From Candidatus Micrarchaeota archaeon (GTDB lineage Archaea > Micrarchaeota > Micrarchaeia > Micrarchaeales > CABMGC01): 64,000 bases of DNA. Positions 51,615 to 60,788 of this stretch are shown one piece after another. The DNA lies in assembly GCA_021817325.1 (NCBI GenBank), contig JAKAVK010000022.1:65077-129076 (forward strand), given 5' to 3'. The stretch's first letter is position 1, and each line of letters opens with the position of its first letter. The notes under the pieces were generated by a model that searched no databases, was not told the origin of the DNA, and worked only from the letters and a program-made list of their open reading frames with translations. Both the position numbers and the translations under genes were made by a program.

Positions 51615-52796
51615 TCAGGAGTCGATCGCTTTCTGCACTGCCCGGGTGAATTCTTTGGTCCCAACGGTCTTCACTCCGACAAGCCCTCGTGCAAGATCTT
51701 GTGTCACTATGCCGCTTTTGACCACCCTGTCTACCGCATCCCTTATGGTTCCTGCAGCTTCCTTCCATCCGAGATGCTCGAGCATCATCGCACCGGCCAT
51801 GATCTCGCCTATAGGGTCTGCGACGTTCCTCCCTGCATATTTCGGTGCCGTGCCATGGACTGCCTCGAACATTGCCGCACTATCACCAATCTCCGCGCTG
51901 CCAAGCACGCCTATGTTGCCAACCAGCGCGCCTGCAGCGTCTGAGATGTAATCGCCATTCAGGTTCGGCGCAAGGATGATATCATAACTCCCCGGCTTTG
52001 CTATGAGCTGCTGGAACATATTGTCCGCTATCCTGTCATTCACAAGTATCCTGCCCTTCGGCGCCTTGACCGCGCCCCGCTCGGCAAGCTGCTCCTCTGT
52101 CACGGCCTTTGTGCCCAGCCTCTCAAGCACCGCCTCGTATGCCCACTCCCTAAATGCGCCTTCAGTATACTTCATTATGTTGCCCTTGTGCATTATGGTT
52201 ATCGACCTCCTCGAATTAGACAGCGCATATGCCGCTGCCATCCTGGCCACCCGCCGCGTCTTAAACCTGCTGATAAGCTTAATGCCGATGCCGGCATCAC
52301 TAGGCAAGACAACGCCAAGGTCCTTCTTAAGGAATGCCCGAAGTGCCGCGGCCTCGCGGCTAGCGTGCCGCCACTCTATCCCTGTGTATAGATCATCGGT
52401 ATTCTCGCGCATTATGACTAGGTCTACTGCCTCTGGTCTCTTCAAGGGGCTGTCGACCCCGGCAAAGTACCTGACCGGCCGTATGTTTGCATATAGATCA
52501 AGTTCCATCCTCAATGCGACGTTGAGCGACCTCTCCCCACCGCCTACTGGCGTGCGCAGCGGCCCTTTAAGGAGAAGCCCCCTCTCCCTCACCTTGCTTA
52601 GCGATTCCTCAGGGAGGCGCTTGCCGAATTCCTCGACCGCGCTATCGCCAAGGAAGACCTCTTCCCAGACTATCCTGCGACCGCTGTACGCTGCTTCTAC
52701 AGCCGAGTCAATCACTGCGATCGAACTGCCTATCACCTCAGCGCCTATCCCGTCTCCCTTAGCAAACAGGACCCGTGCCGACTTGCCGGATGCCAT
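51615..52796 (-). CDS. icd: Isocitrate dehydrogenase (NADP-type)
   Basis: KGDGIGAEV, SLNVALR, ENTDDLY, NLNGDYISD and HGTAPKYAG. I chose the internal Met at 52796 (MASGKSARV). The ORF-track start at 52856 would leave only 15 nt to the divergent giant gene and would add an odd hydrophobic leader. Confidence 0.85.
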   Translation of the reverse strand: MASGKSARVLFAKGDGIGAEVIGSSIAVIDSAVEAAYSGRRIVWEEVFLGDSAVEEFGKRLPEESLSKVRERGLLLKGPLRTPVGGGERSLNVALRMELDLYANIRPVRYFAGVDSPLKRPEAVDLVIMRENTDDLYTGIEWRHASREAAALRAFLKKDLGVVLPSDAGIGIKLISRFKTRRVARMAAAYALSNSRRSITIMHKGNIMKYTEGAFREWAYEAVLERLGTKAVTEEQLAERGAVKAPKGRILVNDRIADNMFQQLIAKPGSYDIILAPNLNGDYISDAAGALVGNIGVLGSAEIGDSAAMFEAVHGTAPKYAGRNVADPIGEIMAGAMMLEHLGWKEAAGTIRDAVDRVVKSGIVTQDLARGLVGVKTVGTKEFTRAVQKAIDS

Positions 52797-52871
52797 AACA
52801 CCATTCACGAGCAAAAGACTATAAATACCAAGTATCTGAAGATATAGCAAGCTCATCTAATACAACTGTGC
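52797..52871. promoter_or_regulatory. Bidirectional promoter between icd and the giant surface protein gene
   Basis: TATAAATA (52820..52827) lies 24-31 nt from the icd ATG on the minus strand. GATATAGC (52841..52848) lies 24-31 nt upstream of the ATG at 52872. Both spacings fit leaderless archaeal promoters. Confidence 0.45.
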
Positions 52872-55800
52872 ATGCGTATGAAAACTAGAAGCTTCTTCCT
52901 CGCTGCTTTAATCCCGTCATTACTGATGCTGTTCTCGTCCCTGCCGCTGCACTATATCCAAAACCCAGCCTCAATTCCGCACGCGAATTCAACAATACTC
53001 AACCGCACCAGAGCTGAGGCTGCATACGGGAACGTGCTCACGAGCTCTGCGCGCAGCGGAGGCCTTGCCAATAGTACGCAGTACGGGGTAAGCCGGATAT
53101 TCCCAAACTCCACATACAAAGCAACCAAGTTCATTGCCGCCGCAGCCCTTGCGAGAAACTCAAGCGCGGGAGAATGGCAGGCAAGCCAGCTGGAGAACAC
53201 ATCGACCCCGTGCGGTCTGCGGTCATCGTATTATACTGGCACTTGGGCAACAAATAGCCTTTCAGGGGCAGGTCCTGAGGCCCTTGTCACTGCAGGTGCC
53301 AAAACAAACGCAACGCAGATATTTCACTGCCCTCTCATGCTAGTGAGAACAGGCCTGCAGAACGGCGCATCTGGGAATCTAGCCACATACAATTGGGGTG
53401 GATACGTGGTTGCAACCAATTTCAGCAACCCACAGCCCAACATCACAGCAATAAACGGATCTTGGGTGGTTCAGACTGCAGCGCCCAGCAACAGCCCCGT
53501 GTACTCATCGCAATGGATTGGGATCGGGGGGTTCTTCGATTACGGCAACTTCTCAGATTATACTCTGATACAGGATGGAACCAGTTCGGAATACGACACC
53601 TCAACTTCAGGGAAACCCTCCTACTACGCATGGTATGAACTGCTGCCACAGGGCTCAGTCGAACTGTCGACAACAAGTTACCCGGTAGCGCCTAACGATA
53701 TAATAAACACCAGCATACACCTCATAAGTGGCAACACGTGGAACATAACGATCAGGGATCACAACAAGACCAAGAATTGGACCTATTCAAAAGTGGTGGT
53801 ATACAATTCGTCAAAGTTGTCTGCAGAGATGATAGATGAGAGACCGGAGATATGCTACTTTTTCTGCTCCCTGACCAATCTCTCTGATTTCGGCATCGCC
53901 CGATTTGGCAATGATTACAGCAAGGTGGGTAATACAATATACGTGGCAATGAACGGCATCTCCAAGCCGATCGGCGCTTTCAATTATAAAAAAGTGTCAA
54001 TGCTGACAAGCTCCGGCACGCAGTACTTCGCCACACCACTAAACATGAGCAGCGACAACACAAGCTTCGAGATGATGTTTGGGCCCATAATAGCCCCATC
54101 GCCAGCGGCGTCAGACAGCGGCGTACGTTACATCAACCTGACCGCCACCGCCGGAGGCGGTCCGTATTCCTACCGCTGGTATGTAAACGGGAATGGGGTG
54201 GGGGCGAACTCCGACGTACTGAGGTTCAACTGGAACGCATCGACAAACGCGTCCACAAACTACGTATATGTTGACGTGCTGAACTATACTACCAACGCCC
54301 TGGTAGCAAGGTCCCTTAATGACACCGTGATGCAGAACAGTCCCATGGCCACGCCAAATATAACCTCCAGCGCAAATGTCGTTGACGCAGGACAATTCTT
54401 CTTCATTAACGCCACAGACTCAGGAGGCACGCCGCCGTATCTCTACAACTTCACGATATACAGCACAAGCAGCACACAACCGTTCTTAAACGGCGCGTTC
54501 TACGGATACAATACAATATCAGTATATGCCATAATATACCCTCCTGGCAATTATTTTGCCAACGTGGTAGTATCCGATTCAGCCTCGCCTGCCGCGGTAA
54601 GGAGCTCTCAGGATACAAATATCATACATATAAACCGGCAGCCAACACTTTATGTGAGTGCGCTCAATATGCAAACCCAGTACCTCTCCTATATCGATGA
54701 AGGGGAAGTAAACACAATAAACTACACTGCAACGGTGCGCGGTGGCACGGGTCCGTATACGATAAATTTCTTGAACGGCGGCTTTAACGTATTGCAGAGC
54801 AATAGCCTGCTGCCCATTGGCGGAGAAGCCAACTACGATCTGAACGTTAACTCCATTGGCACATACTCCCTTATCAGCGAGGCCACAGACACCGGAACAA
54901 CCTCACCTTACTACCTATACTCATACAATTACACGATAGTTAACCCTGCGCTTGCAAAACCCACGATAATGGTCATGGCGAGCAATACTGGTGAATACTC
55001 GTCCTCGCATATAAATGCGAGCAAATTGGATTACGGCCAGTATATATACGTAAACTCCACTGAAACCGGCGGCACATCCCCCTATACGTACAACTTCATC
55101 GTATCAAATGCTGTGACTAATTCTGTTGTTAACAGTATCCTTGCGAGTTCATCTGCCTACGTGCAAAACAGTAGTACAAGCCAGGCTTTTGTCAAACTTT
55201 CGCCTGGCACATACCGTGCAAACGTGGTGGTAACGGACAGTTCAGACCTTCCTGAAAACAGCGTATCGGCCAGCTCTAATGAGTTCACAATCTTCAACGC
55301 ACCTTCAATATCCTTAATCCCAAACAGCCTCACGCTCCAAAACGGACAGAATGAGACATACACAATCACTGTGTATAACGGGGTAGGTCCGTTTATTGTT
55401 GGGTTATATAATGTGGGCAATGGCCTCCAACTTGGCAGCAACATGATAATTGCCTCGGGAGGCACAAATACGATCTCGTTCAATGTCTCTTCCAAATACG
55501 GCAGCATACTGACTTATAACGCGGTTGCGACAGATACGGGCACCTCAGTTCCATTTACATTCAATTCCGTGCAGAGTGAAATAGCAATAAACCCTCTTTA
55601 TAGGGTTCCGTCATTCCAGGTCTCACCGCATTCGCCTCTTGGGAACTGGATATCGTTCGCCGTCCAGAACACAGTCTCGATGACCGTGCCGGTCAATGCG
55701 CTTAATCTCTCCACAAGCGGAGTGGAAACCCTGTTCTCCATAGCACCCACCATACCGCTGGGGGATTTGGCATCTGAGTCATTCACTATAACAACATCGC

Positions 55801-58800
55801 AGCAGAGCAACATAATAGGCTTCAACGGCGTATCTGGGACCGCCGCCCAGAGCCCGGTAGCCGTATTGCTAGTGCAAGTCGGATCTTCTACCGCCAATGG
55901 GATCATAGTGCAGCTGACGTCCTCCAACACGCTCTTCAGCTATTCGGGAAACGTATATACGGGCACTCCGCAGACAGGATGGGAGGCATCATGGTACGAA
56001 GGCAATGCGAGCATCGATGGCGGTGTTGTCCAAGGTCTGCAGCAATGGGCAGATATATTCAACGCAAACTACATGGCCGCTAATGTGATCGCAGCCGGTA
56101 TAGAGTACGGTTTCAACAATAATGCGTCTTCTGGTACGATCTATCTGGGAAACGTGGTGATAAATGACAGGTCATATGTCCCAATACCTCCTTCATCAAG
56201 GAACGAGGTGCCCATAATCACATCAAACGGGCTGTCGCCCGGCGGATGGGCGGAACTCAACAACAGTCTCGGCTGGAACGGCGTGCAACTTACGCTGCTG
56301 CCAACCAACTACACATCAAGCGGCAACTTTACATTCTATGCACTCATAGGCTCGGTGCTTAACGGCGCAATCCTGCGGAACACCCCTGCAGCGACTAAGT
56401 CGCTGCAGACCTACGCGACAGGGTACGCGTTCCCCGAAACCAACTCCATTTCAGCATCAGTCAATGCATCTCCATACTCTGCAGCAGGCTCCGTTCCAAT
56501 GTCTACTTCGATCGTATCCGGTCTGGATGGCGGAGGGGTATCATTCGCAAGTTTCTCGAATGGCAGCAGTGACAATCTGCTCAGGCTGACGCACACCCAG
56601 TTGCCCGGGCTTACGAGCAGCTACGGCAGTTCTGGGGAGTCAGAAAGCCTCTGGCTTACTGGTTTCCCTGTATTCGACCAGGCGTCAGGCGTAAACAACT
56701 TCTCCGTAGCAGATGCCGGAGGCGCGTACGAAGCAACGTTCAACACTCCTATACAGGAGTACTCAAGCGCAGGCAGCAGGAACCTGGACATGCTGATAAA
56801 GATGCTCGGCCAGAATGTAGCGGTCCTTAGCGAAAACGCGCCTACGGCAAACATAGTGCCAACCAGCGTCACATATGGAGGGGGGATAACGCTTGCGGAC
56901 CAGCTCCTGCCCATGGCAACAGTATACCTGGACCATAACGTGACCAACTCCTCTGTAGACGGGTTCAACGTCGAATTGACCGGCATCGGTACGCCTGTCA
57001 ATGGCCTGTCGAATGCCTCGATAGAGGTCTTCTATAAAGGTACGCTTACAAACACCACCCAGATGCAGCCTTATACGATACGCAAGTTCGATGTGTCGGG
57101 CAATGCGGTCTTTGTGAGGATCAACCAGACCCTTGCATCCCCGGCGTGGGCCCAAATACAGCTATTTAGCAACCTCTTCAACCTGACCAATGGCAAGTCA
57201 TTCAACCAGACGAGGGACCCGGGCTGGAATGTCAACCTAATGTGGACCAACACCTCCTCATCCGGCGGCACATCCCATGCGCTTGCGGGCCTAGTCGTAT
57301 GGAATGAATCACCCACATCGCTGCTACCGGGGCAGAGTTTCAACTTTATCGGAGACACTCCAGGCTGGAAGGTCAAGCTGGAGAGCAACGACCTAATAGA
57401 TCAGTTGTCAGGGCCCTACTCCAACATGAGTTTTTCTACATACAACATATCAGGGTTCCTAGAGTTCTTCTACCCGTACCAGAATCCTGCTCAGAAGGGC
57501 CTCGCCTACGCAGTCGCAAACGTGTATAACTATAATGCATTGGGCTTTGCCGCTACTGGATCAAACGAGCTGCTCAATACTACCGCAATAGTTGAGCCGC
57601 AGAATCTGCTGGACGTGATCAGCGACTACAACTTCAACGTAACCCCTGTGGAATCCGGTCGCACAATCTACCCAACCCCTCCAAACTACGTGCTTTACAA
57701 CCTCGATACATATGAGCTGTCCACATACAATGCGCTTAGCCAGAGCGCTGCCATAAACCTGAGTGCTGACATAAATGCCGGGGTCGTAATCCGCCTGCTA
57801 AACAATGGGCTCAGTGCCAATTATCTGTCAAGTACCGGGGGCAACATTACAATAGACGCGGCATCCAGCCAAGCGGTTGCCGTAGTCGCCTTCAATGCCT
57901 TCAATACGAACGCGACTGAGAGGTATGTAGTTCTCCAGAATGTTTCAGAGATTCTACTTGGCAATGATTTCTTACCGCCGGGCGACAACGCACCTCCATA
58001 TCCGGGCATCACCGTTGAAGTCTACGACACTTCAAACGTTCTTTCACCGGCAGGTAACAGCATACTCCTTGGCAAGCTTACATATGCCGGCCCATATCTG
58101 ATGTACTATGCCACAAACAAAACGTCAGACAGGCTATATCCGTACTTCAGCACAGAGAACGCCATGTCAGCAAACGTGGTATATAATCCAAGCTATCCTG
58201 ACAACGGCATACTCGCCCTCTCCAGGCCAACTACCTCAAATACTGCAAGGTCTGCGTATTATACCCTGACCCTGTCACAGCCAGTGCTGCCGGGCACAAA
58301 CCTACCTGGGGCAAACATAATACTACAGCTTACAAATTCATCCCATCCTATCGATGCCCTAAATCCATACCTGCTCAACTACAGCTCCGGATTTGCGTCC
58401 CCGTTCGCCTATCAGAGCTCGCAATCAACAACTCTTGCAGCCGCAAGCCGGTTTAGGACCGAGAGCGGCACAATCGTAGGCACAACAGATGGCATAAAGT
58501 TCTTCGGCAATGAGAGTACTTCAAATTCATTTAACGCCACAGCATCATATCTGGACGTGCTCCCATACCTGGACGAGCTCTCGATCGGCGTGTCACCGAG
58601 CAACGCCACAACTCCTGCGACGGTGATAGGCACTGATGTGCTATTCAATGCGAGTGCGGTTGGCTCCCTGAGCAACGTGAGTTCGATGTCTTATGCCTTC
58701 TATTCCAACAGCACCGAAGAACTGGGCGGTATCTCGGGTGACGTTTCAACCACTCTGTTTCCGATTCTGATAATCAACATAGGTGCCGCGCACCCGGTCA

Positions 58801-60245
58801 TACTGCGGCCGCTCAGCACCGATCTTTACAGTGCAGGCAACGGGATGTTTATTGGTACGCCAGCGGAAGACTCATGGATAGTCACCCTTTATGACAACGG
58901 AAGAATAACTGCGCCGTTGCAAAGCATCAACTCCACGCCGCACTCGCTCTATTACTGGAGCCATATGCTCCAGTCATTAGGCTACGATCCGACTGTCAGT
59001 GCAATAGGGGTCGGGGAAGGGTTCTCATACCTAAAGAACGAATCAACAATCGTCGTGAAAAACGTCACCCTAAACAATGTGACCTATGGGATAGCATACA
59101 ACTCCATAACTCAATCCTCCGCAGTGTCACTGCTGAATGCATCGTCGACCAAGAGCTCACAGGTGAACTTGTCTGGCGATGGAACAATGCTGCGTTTCTC
59201 CACCAATGTAAGTAACACCATACCAATCCGGGTTGCCGTATACAACTTAACATCAGCAAGCCTGCCGCCGATCGCAGGACTGACAAGGCTTGTTGCGTTG
59301 AACTTCTATACAACCTCGCCATACAACAAGAGCCTCAACATCACCATATCCGCTACTGTAAGGTATCCATGCAGCGCACCTGCCGGCGAGATAGCCCCAT
59401 ACGTACTGACCAACGGCTCATGGACCAAGGTGTCTGCCTACAACGTCTCATCGTCTGCCTGCACAGTAGAATTTAGCATACCTGCGGACCCGGTCATCGG
59501 CATATTCCAGTCGGCCCAAAGCAGCGGCGGAAGCGCAGGCGGCGGAAGCGGAGGCGGCGGAAGTGGAGGCGGCGGAGGAGGAGTTGGCGGCGGAGGCGGC
59601 GGCCAGTTCCTACCTACTGTAGTCAAGTTCAACACATCAAACGAGACTGGTTACAAGATATACAATTTCACTCAGGATAATCAGGAGAAGGTCGGGATAA
59701 ACGGAACGATCTTCACCATAGTGGAGAACTTCATCTCCCCGGATCAGGCAGGCATCTCGGTAAACGGGGATTCCTACACGCTCTCCGATGGCGAGATTGT
59801 ATCATTGACCGGGCATCCAGGCTACCACCTTGGCCTCCTGAACATCTCATACCTGCCTATAATAAACCTAGTAAATATAGAGATATATGAATCCATATCC
59901 AGCCCACCTAAAGCCAATAACACTGTGGTGGCAAATACAATAAAACCAGTGAACACTGTCCCGACCAACAGCATCAACACCACTAAGCATTCTTATAACA
60001 ATACCGCTGCAAATGCCACCGCAACAGTAGCAAAGCATCAAAACCCGTATCCAATACTGCCATACGCGCTGGCAGCAGCTGTCATCGTAGTTGTTGCGGT
60101 TACGTATCTTATATACCGTAATAGAAAACAAAGAGCCCCACCAGAGGAGCCAGAGCCGCCAGTAGCCCCTCCACCTGCGGGCCACCAGCCGCCGCCTGAC
60201 ATTCAAGGCGCAGTCCAGCAGCCTGTGCATCCACCAGCGCAATAG
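52872..60245 (+). CDS. Giant (2457 aa) membrane-anchored surface glycoprotein. It has an N-terminal glutamic peptidase (G1/eqolisin) domain and PKD-like repeats.
   Basis: Single uninterrupted ORF. The architecture in order: signal/TM (FFLAALIPSLLMLFSSLP), G1 peptidase motifs (see the next feature), five GG(T/G)xPY-type repeats, a long N/S/T-rich region, a Gly/Ser linker, a C-terminal TM helix and a Pro-rich tail. Sequon density is very high. Confidence 0.9.
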   Translation: MRMKTRSFFLAALIPSLLMLFSSLPLHYIQNPASIPHANSTILNRTRAEAAYGNVLTSSARSGGLANSTQYGVSRIFPNSTYKATKFIAAAALARNSSAGEWQASQLENTSTPCGLRSSYYTGTWATNSLSGAGPEALVTAGAKTNATQIFHCPLMLVRTGLQNGASGNLATYNWGGYVVATNFSNPQPNITAINGSWVVQTAAPSNSPVYSSQWIGIGGFFDYGNFSDYTLIQDGTSSEYDTSTSGKPSYYAWYELLPQGSVELSTTSYPVAPNDIINTSIHLISGNTWNITIRDHNKTKNWTYSKVVVYNSSKLSAEMIDERPEICYFFCSLTNLSDFGIARFGNDYSKVGNTIYVAMNGISKPIGAFNYKKVSMLTSSGTQYFATPLNMSSDNTSFEMMFGPIIAPSPAASDSGVRYINLTATAGGGPYSYRWYVNGNGVGANSDVLRFNWNASTNASTNYVYVDVLNYTTNALVARSLNDTVMQNSPMATPNITSSANVVDAGQFFFINATDSGGTPPYLYNFTIYSTSSTQPFLNGAFYGYNTISVYAIIYPPGNYFANVVVSDSASPAAVRSSQDTNIIHINRQPTLYVSALNMQTQYLSYIDEGEVNTINYTATVRGGTGPYTINFLNGGFNVLQSNSLLPIGGEANYDLNVNSIGTYSLISEATDTGTTSPYYLYSYNYTIVNPALAKPTIMVMASNTGEYSSSHINASKLDYGQYIYVNSTETGGTSPYTYNFIVSNAVTNSVVNSILASSSAYVQNSSTSQAFVKLSPGTYRANVVVTDSSDLPENSVSASSNEFTIFNAPSISLIPNSLTLQNGQNETYTITVYNGVGPFIVGLYNVGNGLQLGSNMIIASGGTNTISFNVSSKYGSILTYNAVATDTGTSVPFTFNSVQSEIAINPLYRVPSFQVSPHSPLGNWISFAVQNTVSMTVPVNALNLSTSGVETLFSIAPTIPLGDLASESFTITTSQQSNIIGFNGVSGTAAQSPVAVLLVQVGSSTANGIIVQLTSSNTLFSYSGNVYTGTPQTGWEASWYEGNASIDGGVVQGLQQWADIFNANYMAANVIAAGIEYGFNNNASSGTIYLGNVVINDRSYVPIPPSSRNEVPIITSNGLSPGGWAELNNSLGWNGVQLTLLPTNYTSSGNFTFYALIGSVLNGAILRNTPAATKSLQTYATGYAFPETNSISASVNASPYSAAGSVPMSTSIVSGLDGGGVSFASFSNGSSDNLLRLTHTQLPGLTSSYGSSGESESLWLTGFPVFDQASGVNNFSVADAGGAYEATFNTPIQEYSSAGSRNLDMLIKMLGQNVAVLSENAPTANIVPTSVTYGGGITLADQLLPMATVYLDHNVTNSSVDGFNVELTGIGTPVNGLSNASIEVFYKGTLTNTTQMQPYTIRKFDVSGNAVFVRINQTLASPAWAQIQLFSNLFNLTNGKSFNQTRDPGWNVNLMWTNTSSSGGTSHALAGLVVWNESPTSLLPGQSFNFIGDTPGWKVKLESNDLIDQLSGPYSNMSFSTYNISGFLEFFYPYQNPAQKGLAYAVANVYNYNALGFAATGSNELLNTTAIVEPQNLLDVISDYNFNVTPVESGRTIYPTPPNYVLYNLDTYELSTYNALSQSAAINLSADINAGVVIRLLNNGLSANYLSSTGGNITIDAASSQAVAVVAFNAFNTNATERYVVLQNVSEILLGNDFLPPGDNAPPYPGITVEVYDTSNVLSPAGNSILLGKLTYAGPYLMYYATNKTSDRLYPYFSTENAMSANVVYNPSYPDNGILALSRPTTSNTARSAYYTLTLSQPVLPGTNLPGANIILQLTNSSHPIDALNPYLLNYSSGFASPFAYQSSQSTTLAAASRFRTESGTIVGTTDGIKFFGNESTSNSFNATASYLDVLPYLDELSIGVSPSNATTPATVIGTDVLFNASAVGSLSNVSSMSYAFYSNSTEELGGISGDVSTTLFPILIINIGAAHPVILRPLSTDLYSAGNGMFIGTPAEDSWIVTLYDNGRITAPLQSINSTPHSLYYWSHMLQSLGYDPTVSAIGVGEGFSYLKNESTIVVKNVTLNNVTYGIAYNSITQSSAVSLLNASSTKSSQVNLSGDGTMLRFSTNVSNTIPIRVAVYNLTSASLPPIAGLTRLVALNFYTTSPYNKSLNITISATVRYPCSAPAGEIAPYVLTNGSWTKVSAYNVSSSACTVEFSIPADPVIGIFQSAQSSGGSAGGGSGGGGSGGGGGGVGGGGGGQFLPTVVKFNTSNETGYKIYNFTQDNQEKVGINGTIFTIVENFISPDQAGISVNGDSYTLSDGEIVSLTGHPGYHLGLLNISYLPIINLVNIEIYESISSPPKANNTVVANTIKPVNTVPTNSINTTKHSYNNTAANATATVAKHQNPYPILPYALAAAVIVVVAVTYLIYRNRKQRAPPEEPEPPVAPPPAGHQPPPDIQGAVQQPVHPPAQ
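53391..54080 (+). other. Glutamic peptidase (MEROPS G1 / Pfam Peptidase_A4-like) domain of the giant protein, residues about 174-403
   Basis: It aligns by eye to scytalidoglutamic peptidase. NWGGYVV matches SNWGGA. QWIGIGG...TLIQDG...YYAWYELLPQ matches AWVGIDG...AILQTG...YDAWYEWYPE. SAEMIDERPE matches NAEFIIEDFE. The catalytic Gln (Q234, codon 53571..53573) and Glu (E319) are both present. Confidence 0.75.
59520..59603 (+). repeat. GGC/GGA-rich low-complexity tract encoding a 28-residue Gly/Ser linker
   Basis: It encodes SSGGSAGGGSGGGGSGGGGGGVGGGGGG, with near-tandem GGCGGCGGAAG(C/T)GGA units. Confidence 0.8.
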
Positions 60246-60290: not shown

Positions 60291-60788
60291 ATGGCGCAAG
60301 GTGCAAAGGGAAAGAAACGGCCAGGAAGGCAGAGCATCCAGGGTCAGCAAGGAAGGCAAGGGCAGGAAGGGCCACAAGCCCCAGCATATCAGAAGAAGCC
60401 GACAGCCGCAGTGTTGCTGTTTATCATAGGCGGCATAGTGATATTCATAGTCGCTGCACTCTACTTGTACAGTGCATCGGTGGTCTCATCACTCAATACC
60501 ACTGCGATCTCAAGGTATGCGGGCAACGCTTCGATAAATGCCACGACCCTCAGCGTGATCCGCAGTTCCATATCCTCCCTCGAGCTACTGGCGTTCATCA
60601 GCTTGGTCTCTGGGCTGGTCCTTGCAGCCTGCGGCATACTTTTGTACCTGAACCCTGCAAGATCAAGAATGCTTGGCATAGTCGGTGTGGTCTTCTCCCT
60701 GCTCAGCCTGACGACTCTCGGCGGTCTGGTTGTCGGTTTCATACTGGCAATAATAGGCAGCATACTGGCCCTACGCTACAGCCCCTAG
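60291..60788 (+). CDS. Hypothetical membrane protein with a basic Gln/Gly-rich N-terminus
   Basis: N-terminal GKKRPGRQSIQGQQGRQGQEGPQ, then 3-4 hydrophobic helices. It starts 45 nt downstream of the giant gene. Confidence 0.5.
   Translation: MAQGAKGKKRPGRQSIQGQQGRQGQEGPQAPAYQKKPTAAVLLFIIGGIVIFIVAALYLYSASVVSSLNTTAISRYAGNASINATTLSVIRSSISSLELLAFISLVSGLVLAACGILLYLNPARSRMLGIVGVVFSLLSLTTLGGLVVGFILAIIGSILALRYSP

What the first reader, a model, noticed from the sequence alone, without database searches (positions are those of the whole stretch)
53391..54080. Eqolisin (G1 glutamic peptidase) domain with an intact Gln/Glu dyad embedded in a surface protein
Every block of scytalidoglutamic peptidase that I recall has a counterpart here:
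- NWGGY.
- WIGIGG...LIQDG, with Q234 in the position of the catalytic Gln.
- YYAWYELLP.
- SAEMIDERP, with E319 in the position of the catalytic Glu.
- LSDFGIARFGN.

G1 peptidases are pepstatin-insensitive acid proteases, best known as small secreted fungal enzymes. Here the domain is the N-terminal head of a 2457-aa anchored protein. This implies proteolysis at the cell surface at low pH, or autoprocessing of the giant precursor. It also supports an acidophilic lifestyle.
Basis: partly seen in the sequence, partly recalled or inferred. Interest (0 to 1): 0.6.

Follow-up and report, generated by a model that had tools for sequence, protein, structure and literature searches.

The report
Acid protease head on giant surface protein
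A tiny acid-loving symbiotic archaeon carries a genuine acid-active (glutamic, "eqolisin") protease domain at the outer tip of a 2457-residue membrane-anchored protein whose core copies its own cell-coat (S-layer) protein. The enzyme family is known; this architecture has not been described.

Summary
Residues 169-412 of the 2457-aa ORF (52872..60245, +) form a genuine MEROPS G1 / Pfam PF01828 domain:
- Pfam scores 64 bits against a cut-off of 22.3.
- A 107-sequence profile hits aspergilloglutamic peptidase (E 2e-22) and scytalidoglutamic peptidase (SGP, E 8e-15).
- The AlphaFold model (pLDDT 86) best matches SGP (TM 0.84).

Q234 is the catalytic Gln. Both Q234 and E323 are invariant in 107/107 homologues.

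The host is a ~1 Mb Micrarchaeota-like DPANN archaeon that also encodes a thermopsin.

The G1 head belongs to a well-supported clade found only on long proteins, and it is the best-conserved part of them. Residues 1150-1869 of the giant are 44% identical to the genome's own ~1000-aa S-layer-type protein. Related proteins fuse G1 plus PKD-like repeats to an almost complete S-layer protein.

Most likely it is a self-activating acid endopeptidase held on the outside of the cell envelope. It would digest environmental or host-surface proteins for an auxotrophic symbiont. Activity, processing and expression are untested.

Verdict: known family, new architectural variant, moderate interest.

The parts
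52872..60245 (+). Whole ORF, 2457 aa: signal peptide, pro-region, G1 head, PKD-like repeats, S-layer-like body, anchor module, TM helix, cytoplasmic tail
   Evidence: The identical protein is found on 13 contigs from independent assemblies.
52820..52827 (+). TATAAATA box about 45 nt upstream of the start codon; candidate promoter
   Evidence: Read from the sequence. Function not tested.
52872..52946 (+). Signal peptide (res 1-25): a basic n-region (MRMKTR) followed by a hydrophobic core
   Evidence: Translation and hydropathy scan.
52947..53375 (+). Presumed pro-region (res 26-168). It is net basic (10 K/R, 4 D/E). Cys114 (TPCG) is conserved in most of the clade, and Cys153 with Pro154 (FNCPM) is invariant.
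   Evidence: No Pfam hit. Only 26% identical to orthologue P0003. Its role as a propeptide is inferred.
53376..54107 (+). G1 (eqolisin, PF01828) glutamic peptidase domain, res 169-412
53571..53573 (+). Q234 (CAG), the counterpart of catalytic Gln53 of SGP
   Evidence: (107/107 Gln)
53838..53840 (+). E323 (GAG), the counterpart of catalytic Glu136 of SGP and Glu110 of the AGP heavy chain
   Evidence: (107/107 Glu)
53826..53828 (+). It aligns with SGP E132.
   Evidence: 105/107 Glu
53853..53867 (+). C328-x3-C332 pair. C328 aligns with SGP C141 (the beta-loop disulfide C141-C148).
   Evidence: (the pair occurs in 15/107 homologues)
54084..55586 (+). Five PKD/Ig-like repeats of about 100 aa (res ~405-905), marked by GG(x)xPYxY motifs at res 428, 518, 624, 733 and 837
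   Evidence: Weak SprB-repeat hit. Repeated matches to repeat arrays in relatives.
56319..58478 (+). S-layer-protein-like body (res 1150-1869), 44% identical to res 115-803 of the genome's 995-aa S-layer-type protein
59514..59600 (+). Gly/Ser linker (res 2215-2243)
59604..59891 (+). Membrane-proximal module (res 2245-2340), 73% identical to the same module in a 1313-aa paralogue that also ends in a TM helix
60045..60113 (+). Single C-terminal TM helix (res 2392-2414), followed by RNRKQR
60114..60242 (+). Pro-rich cytoplasmic tail (res 2415-2457)

Best explanation
The stretch encodes a catalytically competent G1 (eqolisin) glutamic endopeptidase. It forms the membrane-distal head of a heavily N-glycosylatable, C-terminally anchored giant surface protein of a Micrarchaeota-like DPANN archaeon.

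Proposed mechanism:
1. The protein is exported through its signal peptide.
2. At the acid pH outside the cell, the basic N-terminal pro-region is cut off autocatalytically. By analogy with mature pepG1, the cut would fall about 10 residues before NWGGY.
3. This leaves the Q234/E323 active site at the new N-terminus. It stays tethered through five PKD-like repeats to an S-layer-protein-like body, a Gly linker, a membrane-proximal module and one TM helix.
4. The head, displayed at or beyond the S-layer, cleaves extracellular or host-surface proteins at low pH. That would supply peptides to an auxotrophic symbiont and/or open the contact zone with its host.

Shown here: family membership, conservation of the catalytic and structural residues, the fold, the topology elements, homology of the body to the S-layer-type protein, and conservation of the fusion in a clade.

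Inferred: zymogen activation, acid activity, placement in the S-layer, and the substrates.
For: Family membership:
- PF01828 scores 64 bits against a cut-off of 22.3.
- The profile hits AGP (E 1.7e-22) and SGP (E 7.5e-15), with Q53->Q234 and E136->E323.
- Q234 and E323 are 107/107 invariant. The SGP residues G8, G41, G44, G55, W67, E69 and P72 are all kept, as G177, G217, G220, G236, W254, E256 and P259 (their roles in PMC6154417).
- AF2 gives pLDDT 86, and Foldseek's top hit is SGP at TM 0.84.

The fusion is real and conserved:
- The identical ORF lies on 13 contigs from independent assemblies.
- P0003 (2575 aa) is a full-length orthologue, 38% identical over residues 78-2334.
- The G1 head sits in a clade of 7 (SH-aLRT 99), all from long proteins.
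- The head is the most conserved segment: 57% identity against 35-41% elsewhere and 26% in the pro-region.

Topology: an N-terminal hydrophobic signal, one C-terminal TM helix followed by RNRKQR, 90 sequons, and a pro-region with 10 K/R against 4 D/E.

S-layer link:
- Residues 1150-1869 are 44% identical (E 5e-146) to a 995-aa paralogue.
- That paralogue passes the cut-offs of PF05124 S_layer_C and TIGR01564.
- Homologues of about 1000 aa occur in 35 of the 41 genomes searched, own genome included.
- P0004 and P0298 fuse G1 plus PKD-like repeats to an almost complete copy of it.

Organism: the genome is 0.99 Mb, and RadA is 67-69% identical to named Micrarchaeota MAGs. A thermopsin is also present.

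Literature:
- G1 precursors self-activate in acid, and pepG1 has its optimum at pH 3-4 (PMC3009609).
- Prosegments are basic (PMC6154417).
- Micrarchaeota are acidophiles with an S-layer and a 20-25 nm pseudoperiplasm (bioRxiv 10.1101/2021.04.28.441871).
Against: - There is no expression, proteomic or activity data.
- The coordinates of the model could not be read, so the Q234-E323 geometry was not measured.
- SGP D43, whose Ala mutant keeps about 20% activity (PMC6154417), is Gly here. It is Gly in all 107 prokaryotic homologues.
- The aromatic residue after SAE (Trp in 101/107) is Met here.
- The presumed pro-region is 143 aa, against preprosegments of about 55 aa in known G1 enzymes. It may be an extra domain rather than a propeptide.
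- The giant keeps neither of the two Pfam/TIGRFAM-recognised ends of the S-layer protein, so insertion into the lattice is speculative.
- The gene was not found beside icd in three same-genus genomes. Only 2 of the 11 same-genus genomes searched have any PF01828 hit, and those belong to another clade. It is therefore not a core function.
Confidence: 0.6

Rival explanations
1. The G1 domain serves mainly as an autoprocessing module. It cuts the giant precursor itself, beyond its own propeptide, and releases the head as a soluble secreted acid protease or splits the ectodomain into fragments. It would not act as a tethered enzyme.
For: - G1 enzymes are autocatalytically processed in acid (PMC3009609).
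- AGP is matured into two chains (two chains in 1y43).
- Most homologues are free, secreted proteins of 260-370 aa.
- In SPEARE the extracytoplasmic part is found separately from the TM and cytoplasmic part (PMC6642349).
Against: - No conserved linker or cleavage motif is evident between the G1 domain and the first PKD-like repeat. The conserved 'YGP..P.PA' junction is Pro-rich.
- Keeping the head fused to 2000 residues of conserved stalk in a whole clade is hard to explain if the head is simply shed.
Confidence: 0.2
2. The domain is a non-catalytic, lectin-like or adhesin beta-sandwich (a pseudo-peptidase). It would be used to bind host surface glycans or proteins.
For: - The eqolisin fold is a concanavalin-like sandwich. 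Weaker Foldseek hits include phage tailspike domains, galectins and glucanases.
- It sits at the tip of an adhesin-like stalk.
- D43 is replaced by Gly and the conserved Trp by Met.
Against: - Q234, E323 and every residue that positions them (W254, E256, the four glycines, P259) are intact. Most are invariant across 107 homologues and across the giant-protein clade.
- The head is the most constrained segment.
- D43->G is shared by the whole set of 107 prokaryotic homologues.
Confidence: 0.1
3. The fusion is an assembly or gene-calling artefact: a small G1 gene wrongly joined to a separate surface-protein gene.
For: MAG contigs and repeat-rich genes are prone to misassembly, and the Gly linker is encoded by a GGC/GGA-rich tract.
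Against: - The exact 2455-aa product is called on 13 contigs from two NCBI assemblies and two Logan runs, with the same neighbours.
- There is no stop or frameshift in 7374 nt.
- Orthologues of 1728-2575 aa with the same domain order exist in other metagenomes.
Confidence: 0.02

Closest known systems
Scytalidoglutamic peptidase (SGP; PDB 1s2b/2ifw) and aspergilloglutamic peptidase (AGP; 1y43), MEROPS family G1
   Same: Same fold (TM 0.83-0.84) and the same Gln/Glu dyad and supporting residues. Both have an N-terminal basic pro-segment. There is even a Cys pair at the position of the SGP beta-loop disulfide.
   Different: - About 19% sequence identity.
- D43 is Gly.
- 12 N-glycosylation sequons in the domain.
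- A presumed pro-region of 143 aa instead of a preprosegment of about 55 aa.
- The fungal enzymes are free proteins of about 22 kDa. This domain is the head of a 2457-aa anchored protein.
pepG1 of Alicyclobacillus sp. DSM 15716, the only characterised prokaryotic G1 peptidase (PMC3009609)
   Same: It belongs to the prokaryotic branch of G1 and has an NWxGY motif close to the mature N-terminus. It comes from an acidophile (optimum pH 3-4, pepstatin-insensitive), which is the behaviour predicted here.
   Different: pepG1 is a 28-kDa soluble secreted enzyme. That paper reported no conserved cysteines in bacterial or archaeal homologues, whereas this clade has the C328/C332 pair.
Thermopsin-like surface proteins of the DPANN archaeon Nanobdella aerobiophila (bioRxiv 10.1101/2023.10.27.564410)
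   Same: An acid-protease domain plus 4-7 Ig-like folds, many N-glycosylation sites and a C-terminal TM helix, in an ectosymbiotic DPANN of an acidic habitat. The authors propose that they degrade the host surface.
   Different: The protease family differs (A5 thermopsin, not G1). No S-layer-protein-like body is reported. It is another phylum (Nanobdellota).
SPEARE proteins of Nanohaloarchaeota (PMC6642349)
   Same: Giant DPANN proteins with an N-terminal protease region, adhesion domains, a TM helix near the C-terminus and a mostly extracytoplasmic topology. They are proposed to mediate host interaction.
   Different: SPEARE proteins have a serine protease and a cytoplasmic restriction-endonuclease domain, run to 4000-8500 aa, and come from halophiles. 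This protein has a glutamic protease and only a 43-aa Pro-rich tail inside the cell.
Envelope-bound proteases recalled from memory, not checked here: the STABLE protease on the tetrabrachion S-layer stalk of Staphylothermus marinus, and the lactococcal cell-envelope proteinase PrtP
   Same: A pre-pro endopeptidase held at the cell envelope on a long stalk. In PrtP it feeds an amino-acid-auxotrophic cell from external protein.
   Different: Both are subtilisin-family serine proteases. STABLE is a separate polypeptide bound to the S-layer protein, not fused to an S-layer paralogue.

Membership tests
MEROPS G1 / Pfam PF01828 (eqolisin glutamic peptidases) | Significant match to the family model above its curated cut-off | tested here: met
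   64.2 bits against a cut-off of 22.3, E 1.4e-17, covering model positions 2-169 of 206.
MEROPS G1 / Pfam PF01828 (eqolisin glutamic peptidases) | Catalytic Gln (SGP Q53, AGP heavy-chain Q24) | tested here: met
   Q234 aligns with Q53 and Q24. It is Gln in 107/107 homologues.
MEROPS G1 / Pfam PF01828 (eqolisin glutamic peptidases) | Catalytic Glu (SGP E136, AGP heavy-chain E110) | tested here: met
   E323, not E319, aligns with E136 and E110. It is Glu in 107/107 homologues.
MEROPS G1 / Pfam PF01828 (eqolisin glutamic peptidases) | Two-sheet beta-sandwich eqolisin fold | tested here: met
   The AF2 model has pLDDT 86 and is all-beta. Foldseek's top hits are 2ifw_A (TM 0.84) and 1y43_B (TM 0.83).
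MEROPS G1 / Pfam PF01828 (eqolisin glutamic peptidases) | Dyad side chains facing each other in the concave cleft | not testable with these tools
   Model coordinates are not exposed to the script box. Only the secondary structure is known: both residues lie in predicted strands.
MEROPS G1 / Pfam PF01828 (eqolisin glutamic peptidases) | Conserved supporting residues G8, G41, G44, G55, W67, E69, P72 (PMC6154417) | tested here: met
   They are G177, G217, G220, G236, W254, E256 and P259, each present in 107/107 homologues.
MEROPS G1 / Pfam PF01828 (eqolisin glutamic peptidases) | Asp43 of SGP (the D43A mutant keeps about 20% activity) | tested here: not met
   G219 here, and Gly in all 107 prokaryotic homologues. 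This looks like a trait of the prokaryotic branch rather than a loss specific to this protein.
MEROPS G1 / Pfam PF01828 (eqolisin glutamic peptidases) | Basic N-terminal prosegment removed autocatalytically in acid | tested here: inconclusive
   Residues 26-168 are net basic (10 K/R, 4 D/E) and evolve fast (26% identity). They are 143 aa long and have no recognisable homology. Processing cannot be tested here.
MEROPS G1 / Pfam PF01828 (eqolisin glutamic peptidases) | Acid pH optimum and pepstatin insensitivity | not testable with these tools
   This needs an enzyme assay.
Archaeal S-layer protein (PF05123/PF05124, TIGR01564 type; Micrarchaeota SLP) | Homology to the organism's S-layer-type protein | tested here: met
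   Residues 1150-1869 match residues 115-803 of the 995-aa paralogue at 44% identity, E 5e-146. The paralogue passes the cut-offs of PF05124 (38 against 23.9 bits) and TIGR01564 (28 against 25 bits).
Archaeal S-layer protein (PF05123/PF05124, TIGR01564 type; Micrarchaeota SLP) | Presence of the S-layer N-terminal and C-terminal ('outer') domains themselves | tested here: not met
   No S-layer family hit in any piece of the giant. The aligned part excludes paralogue residues 1-114 and 804-995. The giant is therefore an S-layer-protein paralogue fragment, not an S-layer protein.

The most novel reading that the evidence does not exclude
This would be a 'protease-armed S-layer'. A clade of Micrarchaeota proteins has grafted a glutamic acid protease, on a PKD-repeat stalk, onto a paralogue of the cell's own S-layer protein. 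The paralogue co-assembles into or under the lattice: anchored by a TM helix in this protein, or carrying the S-layer C-terminal domain in P0004/P0298. The coat itself then carries outward-facing acid proteases, which the ectosymbiont uses to digest host-surface or biofilm proteins. It could also be the missing TM-anchored 'second S-layer protein' postulated for Micrarchaeum harzensis.
Probability: 0.3. Interest if true: 0.7.

Novelty: new variant of a known kind. Interest (0 to 1): 0.5.

Why it matters
G1 glutamic peptidases have been characterised only as small soluble enzymes, from fungi and one bacterium. Their role in archaea is unknown (PMC3009609).

Here the domain is fixed, with all catalytic residues intact, at the tip of a conserved giant envelope protein. 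The organism is a genome-reduced, host-dependent acidophile, and the scaffold derives from its S-layer protein.

If the head is active, it gives a concrete and testable candidate for two things: how Micrarchaeota obtain amino acids, and how they remodel the contact zone with their cell-wall-less Thermoplasmatales hosts. It would also be a natural example of an acid-stable, surface-displayed protease.

The correction of the catalytic Glu (E323, not E319) matters for any mutagenesis.

Tried and rejected
- Pfam on the whole 2457-aa protein gave no family at all, so the protein had to be scanned in pieces.
- phmmer of the single domain against PDB sequences found nothing relevant. Only the 107-sequence profile reached AGP and SGP.
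- The single-sequence AlphaFold run was useless (pLDDT 29) and cost one of the two folding jobs. No model could therefore be made of the pro-region or the stalk.
- NCBIfam gave no hit for the G1 domain or the other pieces.
- A full-text search for the run and assembly accessions found nothing.
- Cluster look-ups gave no source names for the giant's relatives.
- I looked for the gene at the syntenic place beside icd in three same-genus genomes. Synteny ends at icd and there is no giant gene there.
- I considered transfer of the G1 domain from Thermoplasmatales hosts. The tree puts Thermoplasmata G1s next to another Micrarchaeota clade with weak support (84) and does not place them with the giant's head, so no claim is made.
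Full report
**1. The observation**

The window holds one uninterrupted ORF, 52872..60245 (+), of 2457 aa.
- NWGGY at residue 174 (nt 53391)
- WIGIGG at 215
- LIQDG at 232 (Q234)
- YYAWYELLP at 251
- SAEMIDERP at 317
- LSDFGIARFGN at 337

No ORF of 100 aa or more overlaps 53391-54080 on the other strand.

**2. Is it a G1 peptidase domain?**

Yes.
- Scanned alone, the stretch matches Pfam PF01828 (Peptidase_A4) at E 1.4e-17 and 64 bits, against a cut-off of 22.3. The full-length protein returns nothing, so an automatic annotation of the whole protein could miss the domain.
- phmmer against 1.8 billion representative proteins finds 3057 relatives at E <= 1e-3.
- The word-indexed search returns 186 proteins of similar size at E <= 1e-5. 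All 120 listed carry PF01828, and several are named "G1 family glutamic endopeptidase" by NCBI.
- A profile of 107 of these (alignment A1) hits only two PDB sequence families. These are aspergilloglutamic peptidase (1y43_B, E 1.7e-22) and scytalidoglutamic peptidase (SGP, 1s2b_A, E 7.5e-15).
- With that alignment AlphaFold gives a confident all-beta model (pLDDT 86, pTM 0.82), ordered over residues 169-412.
- Foldseek's best PDB matches to the model are SGP (2ifw_A, E 1e-11, TM 0.84 on the target) and AGP (TM 0.83). The G3 glutamic peptidase neprosin follows far behind.

**3. The catalytic dyad needs a correction**

In the HMMER alignments, SGP Q53 (ILQTG) and AGP Q24 fall on Q234. SGP E136 (AEFIIE-DF) and AGP E110 (AEWIVE-DF) fall on the Glu of "ID-E-RP", which is E323. 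The Glu of "SAE" (E319) corresponds to SGP E132.

I checked the SGP numbering two ways within the same alignment. Q53 lands on the known catalytic Gln. Counting on from E136 gives C141 and C148, the "beta-loop Cys141-Cys148" described in PMC6154417.

Across the 107 homologues:

| Residue | Conservation |
|---|---|
| Q234 | 107/107 |
| E323 | 107/107 |
| R324, P325 | 107/107 each |
| E319 | 105/107 |

The other residues that PMC6154417 singles out are all present:

| SGP residue | Here |
|---|---|
| G8 | G177 |
| G41 | G217 |
| G44 | G220 |
| G55 | G236 |
| W67 | W254 |
| E69 | E256 |
| P72 | P259 |

The exception is D43, which is Gly (G219) in all 107 prokaryotic homologues.

Peculiarities of this protein or its clade:
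- Met (or Val/Ala/Phe in the clade) where 101/107 have Trp after SAE.
- Asp after the catalytic Gln.
- A 6-residue insert (FFDYGN) after GIGG.
- A C328-x3-C332 pair whose first Cys aligns with SGP C141.

I could not measure the Q234-E323 distance, because model coordinates are not exposed.

**4. The organism**

The assembly is 0.99 Mb in 32 contigs and 90% complete. Its relatives are all 0.5-1.1 Mb.

The window's RadA is 67-69% identical to two MAGs named Candidatus Micrarchaeota. It is 48-53% identical to Thermoplasmatales E-plasma, a Parvarchaeota MAG and a Thermoprotei MAG.

The neighbours are aconitase, citrate synthase, isocitrate dehydrogenase, an Mqo-like oxidoreductase and RadA.

The genome holds one PF01828 copy, one thermopsin (PF05317, 97 bits) and no detectable S8/S53 peptidase.

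Micrarchaeota are described as acidophilic, host-associated, S-layer-covered cells (bioRxiv 10.1101/2021.04.28.441871). Two acid-protease families in a 1-Mb genome fit that lifestyle but do not prove it.

**5. The protein around the domain**

| Residues | Feature |
|---|---|
| 1-25 | Signal peptide |
| 26-168 | Net-basic region (10 K/R, 4 D/E) with no family hit |
| 169-412 | G1 domain |
| ~405-905 | Five PKD-like repeats marked by GGxxPYxY |
| 906-1149 | Unassigned |
| 1150-1869 | S-layer-protein-like body |
| 1870-2214 | Unassigned |
| 2215-2243 | Gly/Ser linker |
| 2245-2340 | Membrane-proximal module |
| ~2346-2391 | Asn/Thr-rich stalk |
| 2392-2414 | One TM helix, followed by RNRKQR |
| 2415-2457 | Pro-rich tail |

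The protein has 90 N-x-S/T sequons and only about 9% charged residues.

Searching the whole protein against 41 related genomes showed that residues ~1148-1872 match a ~1000-aa ORF in 35 of them, own genome included. The own-genome copy is 995 aa (G000 contig 31), and it aligns to the giant at 44% identity over its residues 115-803 (E 5e-146).

That 995-aa protein has a signal peptide. It passes the cut-offs of PF05124 (S_layer_C, 38 bits against 23.9) and TIGR01564 (S-layer protein, 28 bits against 25). Its size, its domain hits and its near-universal presence match the S-layer protein reported for Ca. Micrarchaeum harzensis: 101 kDa, with S-layer domains at both ends and homologues in 38 of 49 genomes (bioRxiv 10.1101/2021.04.28.441871). 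I could not align the two directly.

The giant keeps the middle of this protein but neither recognised end.

The module at residues 2245-2340 is 73% identical to the same module in a 1313-aa paralogue. That paralogue also has PKD-like repeats, a beta-propeller, a Gly linker and a C-terminal TM helix. This genome therefore builds several mosaic envelope proteins from shared cassettes, and the G1 domain is the "head" of one of them.

**6. Is the fusion real and conserved?**

The exact product is called on 13 contigs, including two NCBI assemblies and two independent Logan runs, always with the same neighbours.

P0003 (2575 aa) aligns over residues 78-2334 at 38% identity. P0004, P0005, P0006 and others share the head, the repeats and the C-terminal modules.

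In a tree of 123 G1 domains, the query lies in a clade of seven (SH-aLRT 99). All seven come from long or contig-truncated long proteins.

In named genomes, most G1 homologues are ORFs of 260-370 aa. Those of other Micrarchaeota have no C-terminal anchor.

P0004 (1786 aa) and P0298 (2167 aa) join G1 plus PKD-like repeats to an almost complete S-layer-type protein. P0004 includes its C-terminus.

Between the query and P0003, the G1 head is the most conserved segment: 57% identity, against 35-41% for the rest and 26% for the pro-region. That is what one expects of a working enzyme with a fast-evolving propeptide.

About one in nine of the 150 closest representative proteins is 1000 aa or longer, so multi-domain G1 proteins are a neglected minority rather than a singleton. 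Some carry two G1 domains in tandem (P0011, P0050).

The gene is not part of the conserved core:
- Only 2 of the 11 same-genus genomes searched have a PF01828 hit, and these belong to another clade.
- In three same-genus genomes the acn-gltA-icd cluster is conserved, but the giant gene does not follow it.
- These MAGs are incomplete, so this is "not found", not "absent".

**7. How it most likely works**

Established knowledge of G1 enzymes:
- They are made as prepro-precursors with basic prosegments (PMC6154417).
- They activate themselves in acid and work at pH 2-5. Mature pepG1 begins 9-11 residues before its NWxGY motif (PMC3009609).

Applied here, export and acid exposure would remove residues 26 to about 165. 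The active head would remain as the N-terminus of a chain that stays anchored by its C-terminal helix.

I infer that the head is displayed at or beyond the S-layer. Two things point that way: the PKD-like repeats, and the S-layer-like body. The pseudoperiplasm of a Micrarchaeum is 20-25 nm wide (bioRxiv 10.1101/2021.04.28.441871).

The likely role is digestion of external or host-surface protein for a symbiont with little biosynthesis. The same idea has been proposed for thermopsin-Ig-TM proteins of Nanobdella (bioRxiv 10.1101/2023.10.27.564410) and for the protease region of SPEARE proteins (PMC6642349).

Rivals:
- Shedding or autoprocessing of the head (about 0.2).
- A non-catalytic binding sandwich (about 0.1; contradicted by complete conservation of the catalytic apparatus).
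- An assembly artefact (about 0.02).

**8. Comparison with what is known, and novelty**

As an enzyme domain this is a new member of family G1. Archaeal G1 homologues have been known since 2010 (PMC3009609) and are routinely named by NCBI.

In the literature I could search, I found nothing on the following:
- A G1 head on a giant C-terminally anchored protein.
- Its fusion to an S-layer-protein paralogue.
- A clade of such proteins in Micrarchaeota-type genomes.

I rate it a new variant of a known kind, of moderate interest. No function has been shown.

**9. Limits**

- There is no geometric check of the dyad.
- The identification of the 995-aa protein as the S-layer protein rests on two family hits just above their cut-offs and on the analogy with SLP_Mh.

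Noticed in passing
G000 contig 31, 32554-35541 (-) = L099:1055-4042: A 995-aa secreted protein passes the cut-offs of PF05124 S_layer_C and TIGR01564, and ~1000-aa homologues match in 35 of the 41 genomes searched (own included). It is probably the Micrarchaeota S-layer protein. Its residues 115-803 are duplicated inside the giant ORF.
   Followed up: partly
G000 contig 31, 46014-49955 (+) = L100:1015-4956: A 1313-aa mosaic surface protein: an S-layer-like segment, PKD-like repeats, a YNCE/lactonase-type beta-propeller, a poly-Gly linker, then the same membrane-proximal module (73% identical to giant res 2245-2340) and a TM helix. The linker, module and TM helix look like a reusable anchoring cassette.
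   Followed up: partly
G000 contig 31, 9970-10620 (-): A thermopsin (PF05317, 97 bits) in a 374-aa ORF. This is a second acid-protease family in a ~1 Mb genome. No S8/S53 peptidase was found.
   Followed up: no
window 52794-52871: The icd ORF as listed (51615..52856, -) leaves only 15 nt to the giant's ATG. Orthologous IDHs align only from residue ~14-27 and are 399-409 aa. icd therefore probably starts at a downstream Met (ATG at 52796-52794), leaving a divergent region of about 75 nt that holds TATAAATA at 52820-52827.
   Followed up: partly
proteins P0004 (1786 aa) and P0298 (2167 aa), metagenome relatives: G1 head plus PKD-like repeats fused to an almost complete S-layer-type protein. In P0004 the match runs to the S-layer C-terminus (res 992 of 995) and no TM anchor follows. 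This is a second architecture of the same idea.
   Followed up: partly
proteins P0011 (2228 aa) and P0050 (1655 aa): Long metagenome proteins that carry two G1 domains in tandem at the N-terminus, followed by PKD-like repeats and the same C-terminal module.
   Followed up: no
genome G016 (same family as G000): Eight separate PF01828 matches, seven of them in ORFs of 334-373 aa, in a ~0.9 Mb genome. This is a marked expansion of stand-alone G1 peptidases in a relative, while most relatives have none.
   Followed up: no
window 53211-53213 and 53328-53330 (Cys114, Cys153): Two Cys in the presumed pro-region. Cys153 with Pro154 (FNCPM) is invariant across the giant-protein clade, about 20 residues before the G1 domain. 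Cys114 (TPCG) is kept in most members. They may form a disulfide-braced element that could be inhibitory or be retained in the mature protein.
   Followed up: no
window 60291-60788 (+): A DUF6114 (PF19609) membrane protein lies 45 nt downstream on the same strand, and is adjacent on all four contigs shown that carry the giant gene. No match to it turned up in the stretches fetched beside icd in three same-genus genomes, where the giant is also missing.
   Followed up: partly
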